Positions 1-36,485 of a DNA stretch of 36,485 bases are shown here, in pieces. This DNA is from a virus. Its lineage: Duplodnaviria > Caudoviricetes. Under the pieces are notes generated by a model that was not told the origin of the DNA, did not search any database, and worked only from the letters and a program-made list of their open reading frames with translations. The stretch covers positions 1-36,485 of the IMG/VR virus record IMGVR_UViG_3300037782_000006; one strand, 5' to 3'. Numbering within the stretch: position 1 is the first letter of the stretch; each line of letters opens with the position of its first letter. Made by a program: the position numbers and the translations under genes.

Positions 1-42
1 AGGTTAGCACCTCTAAGGTTGCCACCCACAAGGTCGGCATTT
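1..42. repeat. Terminal direct repeat (circular assembly overlap), left copy
   Basis: AGGTTAGCACCTCTAAGGTTGCCACCCACAAGGTCGGCATTT is identical to 36444..36485, and an ORF reads in frame across the junction. Confidence 0.95.
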
Positions 43-200
43 TTTAGGTTGGCACCGCTAAGATTAGCACCGCTAAGGTTTGTAAAGCTCAAATCAGCAC
101 CGCTTAGGTCGGCACCCATAAGATTTGCCCGTTTTCCACCATTACCATTCATCCAAAGCTGATGATTATCCAATATCTTTTTGAGTTCGTAGGCATTCAT
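1..200 (-). CDS. Pentapeptide repeat protein, 5' part (continues across the circular junction at 36443..36347; 98 aa total)
   Basis: Manual translation [57 protein letters not shown]...; A(N/D)Lxx repeats; ATG at 200 overlaps the TGA of the upstream gene; absent from the ORF track. Confidence 0.9.
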
Positions 201-625
201 CAGAATGGAAGGTTTGCCTTTTCGTTTTTGCGTACGATCTCAGCAGCGCGACGGTTGAGACGCTCGGCAAGTGACTTGGCCTTGTCTTGATCCATAGCTG
301 CCACCTTACGGCCTCCGATGGGGTCGATATATGCGACCTTTGCAACGGATTTGCCTTCGTACTCCTCGCTGACAACTTTGATCTGACAGGACTTGCCGAC
401 AAACTGTTCCAAGTTTGTAAAGTCCGCATCAAACTCAAAGACCTCAATAAGGTTTTCAATGGTCTTGTCCGCAGCTCGTTCCGTGAGCCATGCGTCAAAG
501 TAGGCATGGTCATTTGCTTCGGCGCAATAGAGCTTCAGCTTTAGCGACGGCGTGCCGTTGTTTTTAGATTCGGCGAGGATGGCATCCTCGACCGTTACGT
601 CATAGTATCCTGGTGTTGTGATCAT
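200..625 (-). CDS. DUF669-like putative single-stranded DNA-binding protein
   Basis: [36 protein letters not shown]-terminal LPF tail; next to the recombination exonuclease. Confidence 0.65.
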
Positions 626-1446
626 AATAATTTTGCGTATGAAGGTTGATATAGAGTTTCGACCAGCTCGGTTGAGTTGCGCCAGTCGTTCGATTCAAAG
701 CGTTGCTTGAGCTTGTTAATGGACCCAAAAACAGCAGCGCGTCCAACTTCCAGCCAGTTTGGGTCTGCTTTGAACATTTGCGCCTCGTAAGGCTGCTGCT
801 TTTCGACAGCAAACCAAAACCATGAGGCAAGTCGGTCGGTATTGTGTTCGTGGATAATCTGATACAGTGCGGCTTGCTCGATGTACCCGAAATTGCCGAT
901 GGACCGTTCGAAATTCGAGAATCCCGAACGCAAGTTGGCAGTGGTCTTAAAGTCGATGATAATGTGACCATCGCCAAATAAGTCCACTTGCTCACTGGTC
1001 GGCTCGGTTATGATCCAGTCATATTTGGCCTGCAGCGTAAATGTCTCCATGTCAACGCGCTCGACCATCTGAGCCTTTCCCGATTGCATCATGATGCGGT
1101 ACTGCTCGGTTTTGCGTACGGCATCGGCAATGGTATAGACCTCGTCGTAAGCGGTATCGGTCAACACGATCTTGTCTGCATTGGCTTCCACAGCCTCCTT
1201 GTGTCCTTTACTGGCAGCGGTCTTGAATCCGCTTGCAAGTACCTTGTCGGCCCATCCGTAAACGATTGCCTCGACAGCATGGCCGATTGCAAACGCTGGC
1301 AACGGTTCTGGGAACGGAATGTCCTTGGTTACGTACTGGCCACCGAAAAGCATCGGGTTAGCCATGAATGTTTTTAATGCAGTCGAGCCGATGCGTGGCT
1401 TTGTGTCTGACTGCGCGTGATATTCTGTGTCTGTTTCGTATTTCAT
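622..1446 (-). CDS. PD-(D/E)XK exonuclease VIII/RecE-like (DUF3799)
   Basis: EYHA, GSTALK, AFAIGHAVE, AKYD, IIDFKTT, FGYIEQAALY, FFAVEKQQPY-type motifs. Confidence 0.85.
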   Translation of the reverse strand: MKYETDTEYHAQSDTKPRIGSTALKTFMANPMLFGGQYVTKDIPFPEPLPAFAIGHAVEAIVYGWADKVLASGFKTAASKGHKEAVEANADKIVLTDTAYDEVYTIADAVRKTEQYRIMMQSGKAQMVERVDMETFTLQAKYDWIITEPTSEQVDLFGDGHIIIDFKTTANLRSGFSNFERSIGNFGYIEQAALYQIIHEHNTDRLASWFWFAVEKQQPYEAQMFKADPNWLEVGRAAVFGSINKLKQRFESNDWRNSTELVETLYQPSYAKLL

Positions 1447-1781: not shown

Positions 1782-1975
1782 CGGTCTTTAGATGTGAGTT
1801 TAAATTCAGTTCCACAGTGGACTTCGACATCCGCCCAAGCGTTGTCATTTTCGTCGGGTCGCCAATAGACTTTGACCCAATACGGGCAGAGGCCCGTGTC
1901 TTCAACGAATTGATCGAGTAGGCTTTCAATCTGCTCCTCCAATTCTTGTTTTTTTCGGTGTATATCAGTTTTCAT
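1778..1975 (-). CDS. Hypothetical protein
   Basis: 65 aa ORF overlapping both neighbours in operon fashion. Confidence 0.6.
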   Translation of the reverse strand: MKTDIHRKKQELEEQIESLLDQFVEDTGLCPYWVKVYWRPDENDNAWADVEVHCGTEFKLTSKDR

Positions 1976-2264
1976 AAGACTTCAGTTTTTCGATTGGTGT
2001 TTGTCCCTCGTCGGATTCGATTTGTTGGTCATAGTCGGATTCCCGAGCAGGGAAACGGACGTCACCGTATTCTTTCCACTCGGTAATGACATAAAAGCCA
2101 TACCAGCCCTCCATGTCCACTGATGACTGACAGGTGATGTCTGTTTCGCCTATGGTAAATTCAGCAACAAGGATTCCGTAAAGATCTGGGCTGGTGCGCT
2201 GGTTGTAATTCTTGATGACGCCTGCGTTGCGCAGTTCGGTCAGTTGGTGATGTGATACTTTCAT
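1965..2264 (-). CDS. Hypothetical protein
   Basis: 99 aa ORF immediately downstream of the TIGR array, same strand. Confidence 0.65.
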   Translation of the reverse strand: MKVSHHQLTELRNAGVIKNYNQRTSPDLYGILVAEFTIGETDITCQSSVDMEGWYGFYVITEWKEYGDVRFPARESDYDQQIESDEGQTPIEKLKSYEN

Positions 2265-2291
2265 TGGTTCGATAGTGTTTAGTGTTAGTTG

Positions 2292-2903
2292 CGCTGCTTT
2301 GCGATGGGTGTCTAAAATTTTATGGCTCGCTTTGCCTTGTTGGGTGTCTTCGCTGGCATGGCTCGCTTCTGAGTCATGGGTGTCTTGAGGCTAATGGCTC
2401 GCTTCACACCTTTGGATGTCTTCGATTTGATGGCTCGCTTCTGAGTCATGGGTGTCTTGAGGGCAATGGCTCGTTTGGACAGCATGGGTGTCTTCTTATG
2501 CGTGGCTCGCTTGCTGACTGTGGGTGTCTTAGGCCGCGTGGCTCGCTTAGCATCAATGGGTGTCTTCGACTTAGTGGCTCGCTTGCGCGGGTTAGGTGTC
2601 TTAACCTTTGTGGCTCGCTTTCGCCCTTTGGATGTCTTCTACATTTTGGCTCGCTTAAACGAACTGGGTGTCTTTGTTTCCGTGGCTCGCTTGCGCGGGT
2701 TAGGTGTCTTAACCTTTGTGGCTCGCTTGTCATTTATGGGTGTCTTGAACGATGTGGCTCGCTTGCTAGCCGTGGGTGTCTTGTGCTCTCTGGCTCGCTT
2801 GGTGTAACTGGGTATCTTGCCCCTCATGGCTCGCTTTCCGCCTTGGGTTGTCTTTTAAATGGTGGCTCGCTTATTACTAATGGGTGTCTTCTTGCTTTTG
2901 GCT
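2292..2903 (-). ncRNA. TIGR (tandem interspaced guide RNA) array, 17 x 36-nt dual-spacer units
   Basis: Minus-strand unit AGCCA-N9-AGACACCCA-N9-AGCG; loop repeats at 2305+36n up to 2881; two alternating 9-nt repeats both ending CCA; begins with an AGCCA half-repeat and ends with an AGCG half-repeat; 12 nt downstream of a Nop-domain gene. Confidence 0.92.
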
Positions 2904-2915
2904 ACAAATTCCTTT

Positions 2916-3842
2916 CTACCAGTCCCAGCCCCGTGAACGTGGATCAACTGTTTTGTGGTTTCCGCCAAGCTGCGCCTCAGCATAGCATGGACCGTTATCA
3001 AGTCCTTCCAAGTCACGGGCAACATACCAGTAATCGGCGAGGAAATGCTTCATGACCGCGCGCAATGCAGCGCCATGAATGTGAGACTTCTTTGCATCCT
3101 TCCATGCCGATTCGACCAGCTTGCCCTGTGTGTTACGGGTTGCGACGACCTTCTCGCTGGCCTGCAACCGTTCCTTGACCGAATCGTAAACGAAGCGGTA
3201 CGGTCCACGTCCCTTCATCTGTGAATCTGCGAACGTGTACAGCTTAGTGCGTAAAGTCTTGTTGCCACCGCCAGCTTCGCCCTTGGTATAGCGCTCATGC
3301 GACGCCCGATGCAGTCCGCAGTAGGACCACAAGGACGATGCATGACGGGCCTTAGTGACGTCAATGTATGATCGCATATAGGCCACCGTGACAGGCCCGC
3401 AGGACTTTACGCCCATGGCCGCTTTTACCAATGGATCGACCTTAGCCATCCGCTTCATGAATCGGGTAAGCTCGTTGTCCATGTCGGCCATGTCGGTCTT
3501 AAACCGCTGAGCCGCTTCCTGCAAGTACGCCATCGTCGTGCCGCTCGGATCGTTGTCAGTGCGACGTTCAAACGCACGGATCTGATTCTGAATCTTGTTG
3601 TTCAAGTTCATGACCTGATTGCGCTGGTCAATGATTGCCTTGAGGTTTTCAAGGGTTGGCTCCCGCTCACGCCAAATTTCGTGATGCTTCATGTGGTCGA
3701 TCGGTGACAGTACTTCCATATTCCCGTCAACGTATTCGCCGCCTTCGTGCTTTGGCGTCGGGCGATGGATGTCGATGAGATATCCCGTATCAAATTCAAA
3801 TTCGGGACCAATTACTTGTGCTTTTAGGTTGTTCTTAGGCAT
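2916..3842 (-). CDS. tasH: TIGR-associated protein, TasH-type (HNH + coiled coil + Nop/IS110-like RNA-binding domain)
   Basis: N-terminal HNH-like DIHRPTP..GGEY..GN..L....H...H; coiled coil; GVKSCGPVTVA, SSLWSYCGL, GNKTLRT.LY, PYR..YD, HIHGAALR..MKHFL resemble the IS110/Nop C-domain; no DEDD RuvC domain; adjacent dual-repeat array. Confidence 0.88.
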   Translation of the reverse strand: MPKNNLKAQVIGPEFEFDTGYLIDIHRPTPKHEGGEYVDGNMEVLSPIDHMKHHEIWREREPTLENLKAIIDQRNQVMNLNNKIQNQIRAFERRTDNDPSGTTMAYLQEAAQRFKTDMADMDNELTRFMKRMAKVDPLVKAAMGVKSCGPVTVAYMRSYIDVTKARHASSLWSYCGLHRASHERYTKGEAGGGNKTLRTKLYTFADSQMKGRGPYRFVYDSVKERLQASEKVVATRNTQGKLVESAWKDAKKSHIHGAALRAVMKHFLADYWYVARDLEGLDNGPCYAEAQLGGNHKTVDPRSRGWDW

Positions 3843-3846
3843 TGTA

Positions 3847-3993
3847 TTACTTTCTCTTGTTGTTTTGTTTTAGGTTTTGTTCGTATCGCTTTTTTAACTG
3901 GGCATGCACCCAGTCAAGAAATTCTTTTTTCGGCGTCCGTGGCTGGTAGCCAGCGGCCCAAAAAGCTGCTTCACGGTGCGATAGGTGGCTCAT
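3847..3993 (-). CDS. Small basic hypothetical protein (48 aa)
   Basis: Manual translation MSHLSHREAAFWAAGYQPRTPKKEFLDWVHAQLKKRYEQNLKQNNKRK; ATGA overlap with the upstream ORF; ends 4 nt before tasH. Confidence 0.45.
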   Translation of the reverse strand: MSHLSHREAAFWAAGYQPRTPKKEFLDWVHAQLKKRYEQNLKQNNKRK

Positions 3994-4106
3994 AGCTCGA
4001 CCCTCAAGTTGAGCTTGCGCCCAGTGCTCTTGACGAACAGGCGCAAATAAATGCGACGGAGCAGACTGGGCCTGCGGTAGGTTTTGTTCTGAATTTGGTA
4101 ATCCAT
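3990..4106 (-). CDS. Small basic hypothetical protein (38 aa)
   Basis: Manual translation MDYQIQNKTYRRPSLLRRIYLRLFVKSTGRKLNLRVEL; tiles the gap between neighbours. Confidence 0.45.
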   Translation of the reverse strand: MDYQIQNKTYRRPSLLRRIYLRLFVKSTGRKLNLRVEL

Positions 4107-4111
4107 GGCTC

Positions 4112-4348
4112 TTAATTAAAAGGTCCCTGTGCTATAAACCAACCGCAGTGAAAGACATTGTCGCCTCTAACGTGAACATCAACGTTGTCGATCCCTTCGT
4201 AAGTGATCTCCAGAGTATCCAATATCAACGCCTCAATGTCTACGTAATTAGCATTGATAACCGTTCCGTTTTCGGCAGTAAGTTGCCAGTTTCCAACAAC
4301 TTGGCAATCGCCGATTTCTAATTTTGTTAGTTGTACCTTTAGGTTCAT
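4112..4348 (-). CDS. Hypothetical protein, first gene of putative early operon
   Basis: 78 aa ORF with GGAG Shine-Dalgarno at 4360..4357. Confidence 0.7.
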   Translation of the reverse strand: MNLKVQLTKLEIGDCQVVGNWQLTAENGTVINANYVDIEALILDTLEITYEGIDNVDVHVRGDNVFHCGWFIAQGPFN

Positions 4349-4391
4349 TTTATTATCTCCGTTAGTGATTAGTATTTAGTTTACGGGCATA

Positions 4392-4452
4392 CCTATACGG
4401 CCAGACCTGCGAACGGGTCAAGCGCAAACTTAAAAAAACTTAAAAACTTTTT
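4392..4452 (-). promoter_or_regulatory. Sigma70-like promoter with T-tract UP element
   Basis: TTGACC (4421..4416)-N18-TATAGG (4397..4392), preceded by T-tracts; intergenic. Confidence 0.6.
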
Positions 4453-4456
4453 CGAC

Positions 4457-5449
4457 CTAGAGCAATTTGCCCTTGTGGATACGGTAATTGCTGACCCTGT
4501 AATCATCCTCGCCCGTCGTGTCGACAACGGCAAATCCATGATTCCATTTGTTGAGCGGTGCATACCGTGGCCGCAACTGGCACAAGCATCCGACGCTCCA
4601 GGTCGTGACCAGCTTGCCCTTCAAGTCGCTTTCAGTGTGTTCTGAGGACTGGTGCAGGTGTCCCATCATTGAACTGACCTTGGACCGCATATAGAGGCCT
4701 CGGGCAGGATTGACAGGGTTGCTAATTGCAAACCGATACTCATGCCCATGTAGCACCGTCAGCCCGCCGATGCTGATCGGTTCCATGTCAGCGATCAGCT
4801 TAACGTTGTAATCCTTCAGCCGCATCAGCCTTTGAATCGTAAAGTCCTCAACCCCGTAAACCTCTGGCGCTTTCTGCCATATCCAACTTGCCCAGCGCTC
4901 CTCGTGGTTTCCGAGTTTCCACCAGATTTGACAGCCTGTAAATTCGCTTCTCAAGTATTCAAGCATCGCCCGCCCCATCTGCATCTCGCCTGCAAGATCG
5001 CGCTGGGTCGGATCGCTTACGTATCTGGAAACGCTGTAAAAGTCCATAAAGTCACCGTTGAGTAGAACGGCATCAACTCCAGCATCTTTGCCTGTCTCAA
5101 TTGCAATCTCAAGCGCCTTCTCGTCATGGTAAGGGACATGGACATCTGAAAGGATTAAAACTTTCCGTGCATTGAGCTTACGGATTTGCCAGTCCTTAAA
5201 TTCGGTTTTTGGTTTTGGCATTGGCATGGCTGCTGGCCTTTCTTCTAAGTGGTTTGCGATTGGTTTCATCCCTCGTCTTTTGGCTATTGTTTTGCTACCG
5301 CGTCGGTATCGGATGCGGTCGTAAGCTTGATTAAATGTGATATCGGTATGTTTGCTGACCTCACGTTCCAAAATCCTAGCCAGCGCCATGCTTGGCGTGT
5401 TCGGAAATTGCTGGCATAGCTCAGTCGCCTTTTCGGTTATCCAGTTCAT
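4457..5449 (-). CDS. Calcineurin-like metallophosphoesterase with N-terminal extension
   Basis: SDVHVP, NGDFMD, GNHEER, LHGHE, GHLHQ motifs. Confidence 0.9.
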   Translation of the reverse strand: MNWITEKATELCQQFPNTPSMALARILEREVSKHTDITFNQAYDRIRYRRGSKTIAKRRGMKPIANHLEERPAAMPMPKPKTEFKDWQIRKLNARKVLILSDVHVPYHDEKALEIAIETGKDAGVDAVLLNGDFMDFYSVSRYVSDPTQRDLAGEMQMGRAMLEYLRSEFTGCQIWWKLGNHEERWASWIWQKAPEVYGVEDFTIQRLMRLKDYNVKLIADMEPISIGGLTVLHGHEYRFAISNPVNPARGLYMRSKVSSMMGHLHQSSEHTESDLKGKLVTTWSVGCLCQLRPRYAPLNKWNHGFAVVDTTGEDDYRVSNYRIHKGKLL

Positions 5450-14660: not shown

Positions 14661-17057
14661 TTAAATCTGTTTGTAGTCAGCACGGACATTAAGACTTGAA
14701 GGATCTGGAGTTGAATCAGTTACTTTCAAAAATAACCTATCTCTTGTTGAGGAATAAGTGACATTGCTCGGCGTTGCTGGTAGTAACTTCCATCCTGTGC
14801 TTGTTACTCCGCTAGGTGATGATATTAAAATATTCGATCCAGTAGTTCCATCATTTACATAAAATCCAGATCCACTAAAATTTGTCCCTCCTATGTTGTC
14901 TTCAATAACAAAAGCGCTCCAGATTGCATTGTCTGGAAGCATTTGCTGAGCAGACGTAACAATAAAAGCACCAGTTCCCCCGTTGTACGCATCCACGTTA
15001 AAGTCACGGATGTAGCCCTCCGTTTTCGGAACCAAATGCGTGACGCCGCTTGTGCTGGCCAGCGCATCGAAATGGTTGCTGCTGCGGTCGTGGAATTGGT
15101 AGCCGATGCCCTCATCCAATGGTAGGTCGGCTATGGCTCCGATAATCTCAGCCTTAAAGTTTCGGATTTCTATATTGCCAGATGTCATATTGGCAAAAAG
15201 GCCAGGATATATGTATGATGTGTTTAATGAACTATCTAAAGTTGTTTCTATTGTATAATTAGTCCAGTTTGCGCTTGTAGTCCCTAAAGTCTCGAATCCT
15301 AAACCAGCACCAGTACCATTTCCAGCAAAAGCTGTAACAATAACATCGCTTGCTGTTCCGTTTTTAATATCTACGCTAAAACGAACTTTTTGATTGGCTT
15401 TTAATTCAATCGGCGATGCTGTATAGTGAAGCTGTTGTGTTGACGTTGTGTATGTCCAAACATATTTATCTGTATCAAATGCAATAGTTGAATCAACTGT
15501 AAACCAGTCCGATGTATTGTCGGCTGACATATCGTCTTCGGCTGGCGTAGGATTCCCCCACCGATCTTCCACAGCAACCGTGCCGCTCTCGTACAGCTCG
15601 GCAACCTCGGCGGCGGATAAGGCTCGGTTGAAGTGACGGAAATTCTTAAATGCTGAATTCGCTCCTAATGCGCTACTTGAACCGTTTCCAAGATAAAATG
15701 AATTTCCAGAAGTTATTTGGGAAAGATTTATGGATGAAACGTTCTGCACTCCATAAAGTTTATTATCTAAGTAAAGAGTTAGCGTTTGGGCAGCGGTATC
15801 AGATACTAATGCTACAGAATGCCAAGATCCGAATAAATCGTTGGCTGTTGAAAGCGTTCCACCATAAATTGCATTGGTTGAACTATCTCTAAACCAAAAA
15901 GTAAATTGATTTAATACATTAAAAACAATCGCAACACTTTGGCTCCCAGTTCCATTTATCAATAAAAAGGAATTTGTGCCAGATGTTGGCATGGTTATCA
16001 ATTTAAAATCAAAAGAAAATGAAAAATCTTGAGTTGGTTCAAAATTAGAATCCTTCAAAATTTCAATTTTCCCAAGGTTCCCATCTGTAATACCCGCACC
16101 CGCTACGGCCTTCGTCACAACCTTGGCATCAACCTCGGCATCGCTGTATACCTCTAGGTTCGTTCGTGCCGCCGCTGCCGTACTTGCTCCCGTGCCGCCA
16201 TCAGCAATAGCCAAGTCCGTAATGCCCGTAACGCTGCCGCCCGTAATCGTGACCGAGTTGGCATTCTGACTGGCAATGGTCCCGGCATCGGAAATAGTCG
16301 AAAGCGTTTGCGTGCCTGTGTGATTGGCTCGGTTACGGTCGGCGCTGTGGTAATGAAGCGTTGAGTCGCCGCCGTCTGTCAGATCCGTTGCGTTTGTGTC
16401 CGATATATTATTGACCTCGGCACCCGCCTCGATGCCGCTCAGCTTGGACGTATTTGCAGCAACGTCAGTGTTGTTGCTTACCTCTGTGTCAAAGTCAGTA
16501 ATTTCCGATACCGTGTGCGTATGGCTGGTCGGCGTGCGTGCATCCGTCAAGCGTGAGTCATTACCAAGGACAACTTCACCAGCAGCAGCATCGCCAGCAG
16601 CAGGGACATCCTTAGTCGCTGCCGTGCCAGCATCGGATATGGTTGATAAGGTCTGCGTCCCAGTATGGTTTGCCCGTGACCGATCAGCTGAATGGTAATG
16701 CAGCGTACTGTCACCGCCATCAGTCAAATCCGTTGCGTTTGTGTCGCTGATGTTATTGACTTCAGCGCCTGCCTCGATGCCTGCAAGTTTGGACGTGTTC
16801 GCAGCTACGGTCGAGTTATTGGCAACCTCAGTGTCAAAGTCAGTTACTTCTGATGCTGTATGGGTGTGACTAGTCGGCGTCCGCGCATCGGTCAACCTGG
16901 TATCGTCGCCCTTTACAACTTCACCAGCAGCAGCATCACCCGTCGCAGCAACGTCCTTAGTCGCTGCCGTGCCTAGGTCCATGTTCGTCCGCATGGCTGG
17001 CTTGTCAGCCGATTGCATGAATGTGTCTAAGTCACTTGATACTGTAAAGTCTGCCAT
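14661..17057 (-). CDS. Fibre/spike protein with His-repeat shaft, LamG-like and carbohydrate-binding-like domains
   Basis: SHTH, RANHTGTQ, DLAIADGGTGAS fibre motifs; WHSVA..LYLD..FNRALSAAEVAELY LamG signature; followed by a fibre chaperone. Confidence 0.8.
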   Translation of the reverse strand: MADFTVSSDLDTFMQSADKPAMRTNMDLGTAATKDVAATGDAAAGEVVKGDDTRLTDARTPTSHTHTASEVTDFDTEVANNSTVAANTSKLAGIEAGAEVNNISDTNATDLTDGGDSTLHYHSADRSRANHTGTQTLSTISDAGTAATKDVPAAGDAAAGEVVLGNDSRLTDARTPTSHTHTVSEITDFDTEVSNNTDVAANTSKLSGIEAGAEVNNISDTNATDLTDGGDSTLHYHSADRNRANHTGTQTLSTISDAGTIASQNANSVTITGGSVTGITDLAIADGGTGASTAAAARTNLEVYSDAEVDAKVVTKAVAGAGITDGNLGKIEILKDSNFEPTQDFSFSFDFKLITMPTSGTNSFLLINGTGSQSVAIVFNVLNQFTFWFRDSSTNAIYGGTLSTANDLFGSWHSVALVSDTAAQTLTLYLDNKLYGVQNVSSINLSQITSGNSFYLGNGSSSALGANSAFKNFRHFNRALSAAEVAELYESGTVAVEDRWGNPTPAEDDMSADNTSDWFTVDSTIAFDTDKYVWTYTTSTQQLHYTASPIELKANQKVRFSVDIKNGTASDVIVTAFAGNGTGAGLGFETLGTTSANWTNYTIETTLDSSLNTSYIYPGLFANMTSGNIEIRNFKAEIIGAIADLPLDEGIGYQFHDRSSNHFDALASTSGVTHLVPKTEGYIRDFNVDAYNGGTGAFIVTSAQQMLPDNAIWSAFVIEDNIGGTNFSGSGFYVNDGTTGSNILISSPSGVTSTGWKLLPATPSNVTYSSTRDRLFLKVTDSTPDPSSLNVRADYKQI
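16284..16973 (-). repeat. Tandem duplication of 345 bp (115 aa) within the fibre gene
   Basis: CTTAGTCGCTGCCGTGCC at 16611 and 16956; two near-identical GTAATKDV...RANHTGTQTLSTISDA blocks. Confidence 0.9.
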
Positions 17058-26019: not shown

Positions 26020-26808
26020 TCATATCCCGTCGCCTTTCCATATTAGGGTCAGCTCGGCGTCAACGCTGATGCTGCCCTCCTGTCCCGTGGACTTGGCGAG
26101 GAATCCTACGTCGCTCAGTGGTGGAAGATAGATGCCTCCCTTGAATGGTTGCGTGCTTGACCCTGCGATACCGTCCCATCGTTCGATGAGTCGCATGGCG
26201 TCGTACGGTGCGGCGAACGTATTGTTCTCCCGTTTGAACATCATGACAGTCATCGGCTTGTTGTTGTCGGCGTGGATGGATATGGATTCAACGATGGCAT
26301 CGTGACCAAGTGGCACGGTGTACGCTCCAATAGCTGCGACCGAGGACGGGAATAAGGCTGTTGAGTCAATAATTGCCCATGTGTTCGTACCGTCGCTGAC
26401 TGTGATTGTTCCTGCGTGGCTGGCTGCGCTCTGAGTGGCATATGTCCCTGATTCGCTCACAAGGGCCTCTGTAAGCCTCCAGAAAGCGTTTTCTGTCGAA
26501 ACTGGGGTTGTACCATTCATTGCCACCTGTTCGACGAGTACAGAGCCGTCTGCGGCCCTTCCTTTTAATATGACGCTCCTTGCGCCCGTACCATCTGCGG
26601 TGTCGTTAGCTGATGTGCTGACAACCTGCAACGTTACTGCGTTGTCTGGCAATGGCGTGCGGTACGATCCAGAGAACGAAATAACTTCGGGCTCGGTCGT
26701 GCTGACAGCTGGGTTGTAACCGAACAGCATGACCTTCGTATGTTTGGCCAGCTTCCCGCGTGCTGCCTCGAAATGGAATTCGCCTGGGACTAGATATTGT
26801 TTTTTCAT
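26020..26808 (-). CDS. Hypothetical, probably virion-associated beta-rich protein
   Basis: FGYNP.V, VSTSANDT..GTGARSV, AYTVP.G motifs; ATGA overlap with the upstream gene. Confidence 0.65.
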   Translation of the reverse strand: MKKQYLVPGEFHFEAARGKLAKHTKVMLFGYNPAVSTTEPEVISFSGSYRTPLPDNAVTLQVVSTSANDTADGTGARSVILKGRAADGSVLVEQVAMNGTTPVSTENAFWRLTEALVSESGTYATQSAASHAGTITVSDGTNTWAIIDSTALFPSSVAAIGAYTVPLGHDAIVESISIHADNNKPMTVMMFKRENNTFAAPYDAMRLIERWDGIAGSSTQPFKGGIYLPPLSDVGFLAKSTGQEGSISVDAELTLIWKGDGI

Positions 26809-34014: not shown

Positions 34015-34273
34015 AGGTAAAATCATTCATAAAGTTTTCGACGGAATTGCGAACGGAATCCCGAACGGAAACCTTAAACGGAATCCCGAATGTTCTCATA
34101 GAATTATCAATGGAAACCCAAACTGTAACATAAGCAGAATCCCTAATAGCATCCCAAGGGGAATTATAAACGGAATTTCTAATACATTTTGACATATAGT
34201 TATATACGGAATCTTTAACGGAATCCCAAACGGAATCCCGAACTGAATCCCTAACTTTATCTTCAATACTCAT
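34004..34273 (-). CDS. SVxD-repeat mini-protein, copy 5 (89 aa, diverged)
   Basis: MSIEDKVRDSVRDSVWDSV...; overlaps copy 4 by ATGAGTATTGA. Confidence 0.6.
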   Translation of the reverse strand: MSIEDKVRDSVRDSVWDSVKDSVYNYMSKCIRNSVYNSPWDAIRDSAYVTVWVSIDNSMRTFGIPFKVSVRDSVRNSVENFMNDFTYEK

Positions 34274-34457
34274 AGTCTTTCATAAAGGTTTCAACGGCAT
34301 ACCGAACGGAATTATAAACGGAACCTCTAACGGAAACTCTAACGGAATCCCGAACGGGACCCCGAACGGAATCCCAAACAAAATTCCAAACGGAATCCCA
34401 AACTGAATCGTAAACGGAATCATAAACTGAATCCCTAACTCTATCTTCAATACTCAT
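34263..34457 (-). CDS. SVxD-repeat mini-protein, copy 4 (64 aa)
   Basis: MSIEDRVRDSVYDSVYDSVWDSV...FMKDYEY. Confidence 0.6.
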   Translation of the reverse strand: MSIEDRVRDSVYDSVYDSVWDSVWNFVWDSVRGPVRDSVRVSVRGSVYNSVRYAVETFMKDYEY

Positions 34458-34533
34458 AATCTTCCATAAAAGTTCTGACGGAAACCCCAACGGAACCCCT
34501 AACAGAGTCCCTAACTGTATCTTTAATACTCAT
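34447..34533 (-). CDS. SVxD-repeat mini-protein, copy 3 (28 aa)
   Basis: Manual translation MSIKDTVRDSVRGSVGVSVRTFMEDYEY. Confidence 0.5.
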   Translation of the reverse strand: MSIKDTVRDSVRGSVGVSVRTFMEDYEY

Positions 34534-34741
34534 AGTCGTTCATAAAGGATTTAACGGAATTATCAACGGAATTCCAAACGGACTTCCTGACAAAACCCCG
34601 AACGGAATACTCAACGGAACCCCCGGCGGAATCCCAAACGGAATCCCAAACGGAACCTCTAACGGAAACATAAACTGAATCACAAACGGAACCTCTAACG
34701 GAATCATAAACTGAATCCCTAACTTTATCTTCAATACTCAT
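34523..34741 (-). CDS. SVxD-repeat mini-protein, copy 2 (72 aa)
   Basis: MSIEDKVRDSVYDSVRGSV...FMNDYEY. Confidence 0.6.
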   Translation of the reverse strand: MSIEDKVRDSVYDSVRGSVCDSVYVSVRGSVWDSVWDSAGGSVEYSVRGFVRKSVWNSVDNSVKSFMNDYEY

Positions 34742-34877
34742 AATCTTCCATAAAGGTTTCGACAGAATTGCGAGCGGAATTCCAAACAGAATCCCAAACG
34801 GAATCGTAAACGGAATCCCAAGTGGAATGATAAACGGAACCCCAAGCGGACTCCCTGACTTTATCTTCAATGCTCAT
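34731..34877 (-). CDS. SVxD-repeat mini-protein, copy 1 (48 aa)
   Basis: Manual translation MSIEDKVRESAWGSVYHSTWDSVYDSVWDSVWNSARNSVETFMEDYEY; ATGA overlap with the upstream gene. Confidence 0.6.
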   Translation of the reverse strand: MSIEDKVRESAWGSVYHSTWDSVYDSVWDSVWNSARNSVETFMEDYEY

Positions 34878-36347: not shown

Positions 36348-36443
36348 TAGAATTTGGTATTTGAGTTGATTTCAACGCAGCTAAGATTAGCACCTCTCAA
36401 ATAGAGACCCGTAAGGTTGGCACCGCAAAGATTGGCACCGATA
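36347..36443 (-). CDS. Pentapeptide repeat protein, 3' part (continuation of 200..1)
   Basis: ...IGANLCGANLTGLYLRGANLSCVEINSNTKF*; TAA overlaps the ATG of the resolvase. Confidence 0.88.
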
Positions 36444-36485
36444 AGGTTAGCACCTCTAAGGTTGCCACCCACAAGGTCGGCATTT
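36444..36485. repeat. Terminal direct repeat (circular assembly overlap), right copy
   Basis: Identical to 1..42. Confidence 0.95.

What the first reader, a model, noticed from the sequence alone, without database searches (positions are those of the whole stretch)
2292..2903. Variant guide grammar: AG after each spacer and a near-invariant A at spacer position 9
Seen: both repeats begin AG (AGACACCCA, AGCGAGCCA) and end CCA. 32 of 34 spacers end in A; only the distal unit 2292..2327 (TAAAATTTT / TCGCAAAGC) does not. Known, from memory of the TasR-type arrays: spacers are flanked by a CCA box and a UG box. Inference: either the repeats are effectively 10 nt with 8-nt spacers (8+8 target, possibly with a 2-nt unpaired gap), or targets share a central AT dinucleotide (N8-AT-N8), which could reflect an acquisition motif. 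How TIGR spacers are acquired is unknown.
Basis: partly seen in the sequence, partly recalled or inferred. Interest (0 to 1): 0.7.

Follow-up and report, generated by a model that had tools for sequence, protein, structure and literature searches.

The report
Ordinary TIGR-TasH array, 8-base spacers
This phage's guide array has the same 10-base repeats and 8-base spacers as the published Salicola phage TIGR-TasH system, so the 'invariant A' is the first base of the repeat, and the guides likely aim at unbroken 16-base DNA sites, possibly in rival sister phages.

Summary
Observation confirmed: 17 units of 36 nt on the minus strand; base 9 is A in 32 of 34 spacers. It is not a new grammar. The adjacent gene is 51% identical to SpTasH of phage CGphi29, whose array has the same edge repeat and a loop repeat one base different. 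Published work gives that system 8-nt spacers, 8-bp heteroduplexes and a 16-bp target. Base 9 is A in 1229 of 1392 spacers from 69 related array clusters. A junction test on 596 natural spacer pairs fits contiguous 8+8 coding DNA (z 5.1, replicated in two sets), not a 2-nt gap or central AT (z 0.3, 0.7). I found no such test in the papers searched. One result goes against this: the window's own array and its sister strain score best with an AT centre (z 3.6, 25 units). However, their three best cross-strain matches (14/16) are all gap-free (p 0.036). No exact natural target was found. The scan has reported SpTasH-type loci on other DNA before. Verdict: new member of a known kind, with a small open chance of an 18-bp variant.

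The parts
2292..2903 (-). Dual-repeat TIGR array, 17 units of 36 nt: half edge (5) + spacer A (8) + loop repeat AAGACACCCA (10) + spacer B (8) + half edge (5); full edge repeat AAGCGAGCCA. Predicted guides run 2903-2868, then every 36 nt down to 2327-2292
   Evidence: Register and column counts; same layout as the synthetic SpTasH guides in Table S3 of PMC12045711. Processing is predicted, not shown
2899..2903 (-). 5'-truncated first edge repeat (AGCCA), matching the 5' end of a mature guide
   Evidence: PMC12045711 describes truncated end repeats
2292..2332 (-). Distal unit 17: loop begins T, terminal half edge begins C; the only two non-A bases at position 9
2916..3842 (-). TasH gene, 308 aa: HNH (H26, N41, H50, H54), coiled coil, Nop domain with beta-hairpin
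   Evidence: 51% identical to SpTasH over 288 columns; PDB match E 1e-92 to TasH entries 9w03, 9w04, 25qk and others; alignments
2513..2538 (-). Spacers of unit 11 (A 2538-2531, B 2520-2513): candidate guide against a sister-phage allele of the exonuclease gene
   Evidence: 14/16 gap-free match, spacer B 8/8, in L470, L265, L266; not significant alone (p 0.23)
1394..1409 (+). The window's own allele of that site, in exonuclease gene 622-1446 (minus strand); matches the unit-11 target at 11/16
   Evidence: alignment, counted by eye; gene family
4397..4412 (-). Site matched 14/16 without a gap by a guide of sister strain L265; lies between TTGACC and TATAGG boxes upstream of the operon; L265's own allele matches 10/16
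   Evidence: the boxes were read by eye, and the promoter scan did not list them
26370..26385 (-). Second site matched 14/16 without a gap by an L265 guide, in gene 26020-26808; both mismatches at third codon positions
   Evidence: no homologue examined carried the guide's amino acid

Best explanation
The array has two alternating 10-nt repeats that both begin with A and 8-nt spacers, next to a TasH gene; it is likely cut into 36-nt guides that would steer the TasH dimer to an unbroken 16-bp DNA site, and the constant A would stay unpaired as part of the repeat. Shown here: the register, the protein match, the same grammar in SpTIGR and across the clade, and a statistical fit of natural pairs to contiguous 8+8 coding DNA. 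Taken from SpTasH papers: processing in mid-edge, 8-bp heteroduplexes on opposite strands, HNH cleavage, no PAM. Inferred: base 9 is the position that is the last spacer base in 9-nt systems such as TaTasR (5+9+9+9+4 against 5+8+10+8+5, both 36 nt). It became a purine-biased repeat base when the duplex shortened to 8 bp, perhaps with the beta-hairpin as ruler. Also inferred: each pair was captured from one 16-bp stretch with the second half inverted, halves are later reshuffled at the repeats, and the targets include rival alleles in sister phages.
For: SpTIGR repeats AAGCGAGCCA/AAGACAACCA with 8-nt spacers; base 9 is A in 17 of 20 there. PMC12045711: 16-nt variable sequence for SpTIGR. bioRxiv 2026.08.11.744272: 8-bp duplex, 8-nt spacer A, substrates MM1-MM16. 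PMC13421893: the named bases A1, C5, A11, G12, G14, C16 and the duplex resuming at 17 fit SpTIGR unit 1 as a gap-free 16-mer (my mapping). Clade: A in 1229 of 1392, purine in 1334; as conserved as other repeat columns (0.88-0.89 against 0.77-1.00). Junction test, within-array shuffles: gap 0 z 2.75 (205 units), 3.84 (391 units), 5.09 (596); gap 1 -1.06, gap 2 0.34, AT 0.67, 9+9 0.47; three wrong geometries at gap 0 null. It holds for 9 of 9 Markov models (z 3.3-6.0), for reading frame alone (z 3.6) and without base 8 (z 2.8), and in 41 of 59 clusters. In 93 units with a non-A base 9, 8+8 fits (z 3.2) and 9+9 does not (z -1.8). The ten clusters nearest in the tree fit gap 0 (z 2.2). Cross-strain matches of 14/16 or better: 3 at gap 0 (0.76 expected, p 0.036), none at gaps 1-3, none at 16/18 or better with AT.
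Against: The window plus L265 (25 units) score z 3.0 at gap 2 and z 3.6 with an AT centre, the best of 16 centres, against z 1.1 at gap 0. These two rank first and second of 47 clusters for AT. Simulated gap-0 truth reached the observed AT score in at most 1 of 400 draws per setting; likelihood ratio about 3-9 for AT. One of my scans (unit 10) gave 114 of 120 hits at gap 2, 102 with centre CC. No exact natural target was found. The clade effect is about half the simulated full effect (0.11 against 0.20 bit). The TasA control of the test was unspecific. Nothing was tested at the bench for this protein.
Confidence: 0.84

Rival explanations
1. This lineage, unlike the rest of the clade, uses 18-bp targets with a fixed central AT: the repeat's A pairs as a ninth base on both strands, and capture selects or creates AT-centred sites.
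For: Window z 2.16-2.83 (13-16 units) and L265 z 2.95 (12 units, almost no shared spacers); ranks 2 and 1 of 47 clusters. Joint z 3.6, found with 5 of 5 training sets at p 0.03 or less. The protein has a 1-residue insertion at the coiled-coil tip seen among 63 aligned proteins only in L265 and L023. TaTasR tolerates 1-2 bp gaps (PMC12045711).
Against: Clade-wide AT z 0.67 where 8-9.5 is expected. Gap-0 effect in these 25 units (0.125) equals the clade mean (0.109). Per-cluster z is over-dispersed (sd 1.2) and other cluster pairs reach 3.6 against 3.2 here (548 pairs). All three cross-strain 14/16 matches are gap-free. L023, with the same insertion, shows no gap-2 signal (6 units; AT z -1.3). 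Hairpin, wedge and unwinding residues match SpTasH. Scans of units 6 and 10 gave one AT-centred hit each, in unrelated genes.
Confidence: 0.1
2. Targets are 8+8 with two unpaired central bases of any sequence, or a mixture of gap-free and 2-nt-gap targets in this lineage.
For: Window plus L265 gap 2 z 3.0-3.4; both gap-0 and gap-2 scores are raised there; unit 10 has 102 viral hits with centre CC.
Against: Clade gap 2 z 0.34 where 5-6 is expected. The CC hits come mostly from two abundant families that read DAGDL (translated by eye). Unit 6 hits are even across gaps, 13/12/11. No cross-strain match at gap 2.
Confidence: 0.05
3. Spacers are not captured from outside DNA but arise by duplication and drift inside the array, so no target geometry is encoded.
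For: Duplicated and near-duplicated units in the window; no exact target found.
Against: Drift would not give reading-frame agreement between the halves at one offset in two separate sets, nor junction dinucleotides that follow genome bias (r 0.70, p 0.003); pairs across the edge repeat show no signal at offset 0.
Confidence: 0.01

Closest known systems
SpTIGR-TasH of Salicola phage CGphi29 (NC_020844; PMC12045711, PMC13421893, bioRxiv 10.64898/2026.08.11.744272; PDB 9w03, 9w04)
   Same: Edge repeat identical; loop repeat differs at one base; 8-nt spacers; 36-nt unit; array just downstream of the gene; protein 51% identical with H54, H58, W249, H256, K211, T240, Q241 and Y289 equivalents kept.
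   Different: 17 units against about 11; no terminator found after the array; W203 is Y202; the processing histidine sits two residues further from the tyrosine; small insertions at the coiled-coil tip and linker; a residual statistical hint of AT-centred targets.
TaTIGR-TasR (Thermoproteota; PMC12045711, PDB 9mty)
   Same: 36-nt guide, CCA box C, guide starts AGCCA, target is spacer A followed by the reverse complement of spacer B (Table S3 oligos).
   Different: UG box D, 9-nt spacers, 18-bp target, RuvC.
Nuclease-less TasA clade of locus L037 and relatives
   Same: L037 has the same 9-nt repeat cores; relatives have AG or AA box D.
   Different: No HNH and no beta-hairpin (shown for L037 only); base 9 is A 229, G 114, T 95, C 20 of 458 in 17 clusters, so much freer; target geometry unresolved by my test.

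Membership tests
Dual-repeat TIGR-TasH | Alternating edge and loop repeats of 8-12 nt with two spacers per 36-nt unit | tested here: met
   17 units in unbroken register
Dual-repeat TIGR-TasH | Box C and box D shared by both repeats | tested here: met
   CCA in 30 of 33 full repeats, AG in 32 of 33
Dual-repeat TIGR-TasH | Array starts and ends with truncated edge repeats | tested here: met
   AGCCA at 2903-2899; degenerate half edge at 2296-2292
Dual-repeat TIGR-TasH | Terminator after the array (typical, not required) | tested here: not met
   No terminator-like site on the minus strand in 1900-4500; the array runs into the next gene
Dual-repeat TIGR-TasH | Adjacent Nop-domain Tas gene | tested here: met
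   weak PF02371 match as in SpTasH
Dual-repeat TIGR-TasH | N-terminal HNH with catalytic residues | tested here: met
   H50 and H54 align with SpTasH H54 and H58, N41 with N45. Pfam did not call HNH in either protein
Dual-repeat TIGR-TasH | Y/H processing pair at the C-terminus | tested here: inconclusive
   Y287 aligns with Y289; the histidine is 9 residues on, not 7; many clade members share this form
Dual-repeat TIGR-TasH | 8+8 contiguous target on opposite strands | tested here: inconclusive
   Met for the clade; mixed for this array
Dual-repeat TIGR-TasH | Processing into 36-nt RNAs and RNA-guided cleavage | not testable with these tools
   Needs bench work
TasR-type grammar (UG box D, 9-nt spacers) | UG after each spacer and a free ninth base | tested here: not met
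   AG, and A in 32 of 34; no RuvC

The most novel reading that the evidence does not exclude
This phage lineage has switched from the 16-bp target of its clade to an 18-bp target with a fixed central AT, the first sequence motif tied to TIGR spacer capture, and uses it against rival phages.
Probability: 0.1. Interest if true: 0.72.

Novelty: new member of a known kind. Interest (0 to 1): 0.33.

Why it matters
The grammar itself is published and needs no follow-up. Two by-products matter more. First, natural TasH spacer pairs carry the statistics of one contiguous 16-bp piece of coding DNA. That argues for capture from real genes, with the second half inverted and no fixed centre, on a question that bioRxiv 10.64898/2026.09.09.750476 calls unknown. 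The test is cheap and could be run on all catalogued guides, clade by clade. Second, three near-matches between sister phages give testable candidate targets. If the AT signal in this lineage were real, it would be a handle on the capture mechanism.

Tried and rejected
Exact or 1-mismatch targets of 215 TasH units in 1.96 million 19-mers of related phages, gaps 0-3: nothing above shuffles. 28 window and L265 units in 3.6 million letters: nothing above shuffles at 14/16 or better. Synonymous recoded sites in the window's own genes: 0 of 28 at gaps 0, 2 and AT, 1 at gap 1, as in shuffles. Guides against their own genomes, 202 units in 21 clusters: no enrichment at any gap. No target could be assigned. 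No homologue among the proteins examined carries the amino acids the two coding candidate guides spell. The frame-only control 'reverse A + 2 + B' scored z 3.9 because it is the same sum modulo 3; it is not an independent geometry. The TasA set gave z about 2 at several gaps and so failed as a positive control. No RNA holder listed. No Rfam match and no unusual fold of the array, z -0.34. A scan for relatives by primase gave one fragment. The whole contigs of L265, L266, L267 and L277 were not held. Five or so extra units visible only as contig loose ends were not added to the test.

Full report
Observation. The window is a 36,485-base virus record whose last bases repeat its first, with terminase, portal, head and tail genes. 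On the minus strand, 2903 to 2292 holds 17 units of 36 nt in an unbroken register. Base 9 after each CCA box is A in 32 of 34 cases, the exceptions being in the distal unit; P is 4e-16 against the A frequency of positions 1-8. Read as repeats, the edge is AAGCGAGCCA and the loop AAGACACCCA, with 8-nt spacers.

The protein. ORF 2916-3842 ends 12 bases before the array. It is 51% identical to SpTasH of Salicola phage CGphi29 and matches its solved structures at E 1e-92. The HNH histidines, the stacking and unwinding residues, the beta-hairpin and the processing tyrosine are aligned; the processing histidine is displaced by two residues.

The grammar is published. The CGphi29 array has the same edge repeat, a loop one base different, and 8-nt spacers; base 9 is A in 17 of 20. 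Faure et al. (PMC12045711; I read parts 1-3 of 12, the Discussion, searched passages, part 1 of Table S3 and search hits in Tables S1 and S3) give 16 variable bases for SpTIGR and list guides of layout 5+8+10+8+5. They also say box motifs diverge between arrays but covary between the two repeats. Guan et al. (bioRxiv 10.64898/2026.08.11.744272; parts 1-3 of 5 and passages) state an 8-bp heteroduplex and use mismatches 1-16. Zhou et al. (PMC13421893; parts 1-3 of 5, passages, supplement search) name target bases that I can map onto SpTIGR unit 1 only as a gap-free 16-mer. Yang et al. 2026, the first SpTasH structure paper, is not held; I saw it only as cited. The figure supplements, which may show this base directly, could not be read.

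Breadth. Arrays were parsed in 124 of 130 loci (171 arrays, 70 clusters). In the 69 clusters not beside the TasA gene, base 9 is A 1229, G 105, T 33, C 25; 55 of 69 clusters are at least 80% A and two are mostly G. Limits: the parser anchors on repeat positions 2-10 beginning with A, so it cannot find UG arrays; 17 loci were fetched by a pattern containing the A; a full-length Tas was extracted for 63 of the clusters. Non-A bases go with other repeat changes only weakly (odds 1.4, p 0.04) and are not confined to array ends. A TasA clade with the same kind of cores but, in L037, no HNH or hairpin has base 9 A in 229 of 458 spacers and C in 20. So the AG box and the fixed A are separable.

Target geometry from natural spacers. 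I trained Markov models on about 0.68 Mb of ORFs from the fetched phages and asked at which spacing spacer A and the reverse complement of spacer B look like one piece of DNA, against shuffles within each array. After dropping units that share a near-identical half, 596 remained. Gap 0 gave z 2.75 in the viral set (205 units), 3.84 in the later metagenome set (391) and 5.09 together. Gap 1 gave -1.06, gap 2 0.34, AT 0.67 and 9+9 0.47; three other geometries at gap 0 were null. Simulated truths give z about 8 for gap 0, 5-6 for gap 2 and 8-9.5 for AT, each at its own spacing. The signal holds in 9 of 9 models, with reading frame alone and without base 8, in 41 of 59 clusters, and in the 93 units whose base 9 is not A, where 9+9 fails. 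It is about half the simulated size, which fits drift and reshuffled halves. The model was trained on TIGR-bearing phages, not on the unknown targets, and the TasA control was unspecific. Four literature searches turned up no such test; Xu et al. (bioRxiv 10.64898/2026.09.09.750476; part 1 of 7 and passages) call capture unknown and most targets undetermined.

The result against my reading. The window and its sister strain L265 (Tas 97% identical, nearly all spacers different) do not show the clade pattern cleanly. On 25 units, gap 0 gives z 1.1, gap 2 z 3.0 and AT z 3.6, the best of 16 centres. They rank second and first of 47 clusters for AT. The hypothesis and the array were fixed in advance, so this is not a fishing result. 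But the gap-0 effect size there equals the clade's, per-cluster scores are over-dispersed, other pairs of clusters reach the same level, and the simulated likelihood ratio for AT over gap 0 is only about 3-9. The ten nearest clusters fit gap 0.

Candidate targets. Following two earlier scan notes on rival alleles, I compared sister phages. Unit 11 matches the exonuclease gene of L470, L265 and L266 at 14/16 without a gap, spacer B exactly, where the window's own allele matches 11/16; the two mismatches are transitions, one silent and one K/R. L265 guides match the window better at gap 0 than shuffled pairs (p about 0.01; gaps 1-3 null), with two 14/16 sites. At one of them L265's own allele matches 10/16. 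Both directions together: 3 hits at gap 0 against 0.76 expected (p 0.036), none at other spacings. This is weak, and no perfect allele was seen. Guides are not enriched for matches to their own genomes.

Mechanism and verdict. Most likely the array yields 36-nt guides cut in mid-edge; the dimer pairs 8 bases on each strand of a contiguous 16-bp site and cuts both; the A is the first, unpaired base of a 10-nt repeat (0.84). An AT-centred 18-bp target in this lineage keeps 0.10 and a free 2-nt gap 0.05. The finding as posed is already known, and the locus is a new member of a known kind. Interest 0.33 rests on the junction test, the candidate targets and the open AT signal.

Noticed in passing
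window 2292-2903; L265 2454-2940; runs X2-X5: Sister strains have almost wholly different spacers despite 97% identical Tas. Near-identical spacer A sequences recur with different spacer B (units 5 and 12 against L265; a joint at 2368/2737 in X2-X5), and blocks of units are reordered, which suggests recombination at the repeats.
   Followed up: partly
window 2337-2338 and 2823: Strain variants in spacers: two changes in unit 16 spacer B are both silent in one reading frame; one change in unit 3 spacer A. The unit-16 variant matches a family with a GASVP motif (10 of 79 viral hits); not shown to be a target.
   Followed up: partly
window 2845-2854: Loop repeat of unit 2 ends CCC instead of CCA, so box C is damaged and this guide may be inactive.
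   Followed up: no
L034/L039/L040 (G032): Four separate TIGR arrays within about 5 kb around one Tas gene, two of them away from it.
   Followed up: no
L036 (G033): Short array with the window's exact repeats in a 42.6-kb contig with no Tas match.
   Followed up: no
L339, L343: TasH arrays in which base 9 is mostly G (7 of 9, 20 of 28); L339 and L343 share similar proteins.
   Followed up: no
L434-L468: TasA clade with AA/AG box D where base 9 avoids C (20 of 458); target length unresolved.
   Followed up: partly
window 34041-34855: Long array of degenerate 12-nt repeats with a 260-nt duplication.
   Followed up: no
window 1-200 and 36407-36485: 15-nt periodic ORF reading as five-residue repeats that spans the join of the circular record; 'pentapeptide repeat' is my recalled label.
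   Followed up: no
window 16348-16973: 345-nt internal duplication in a tail gene.
   Followed up: no
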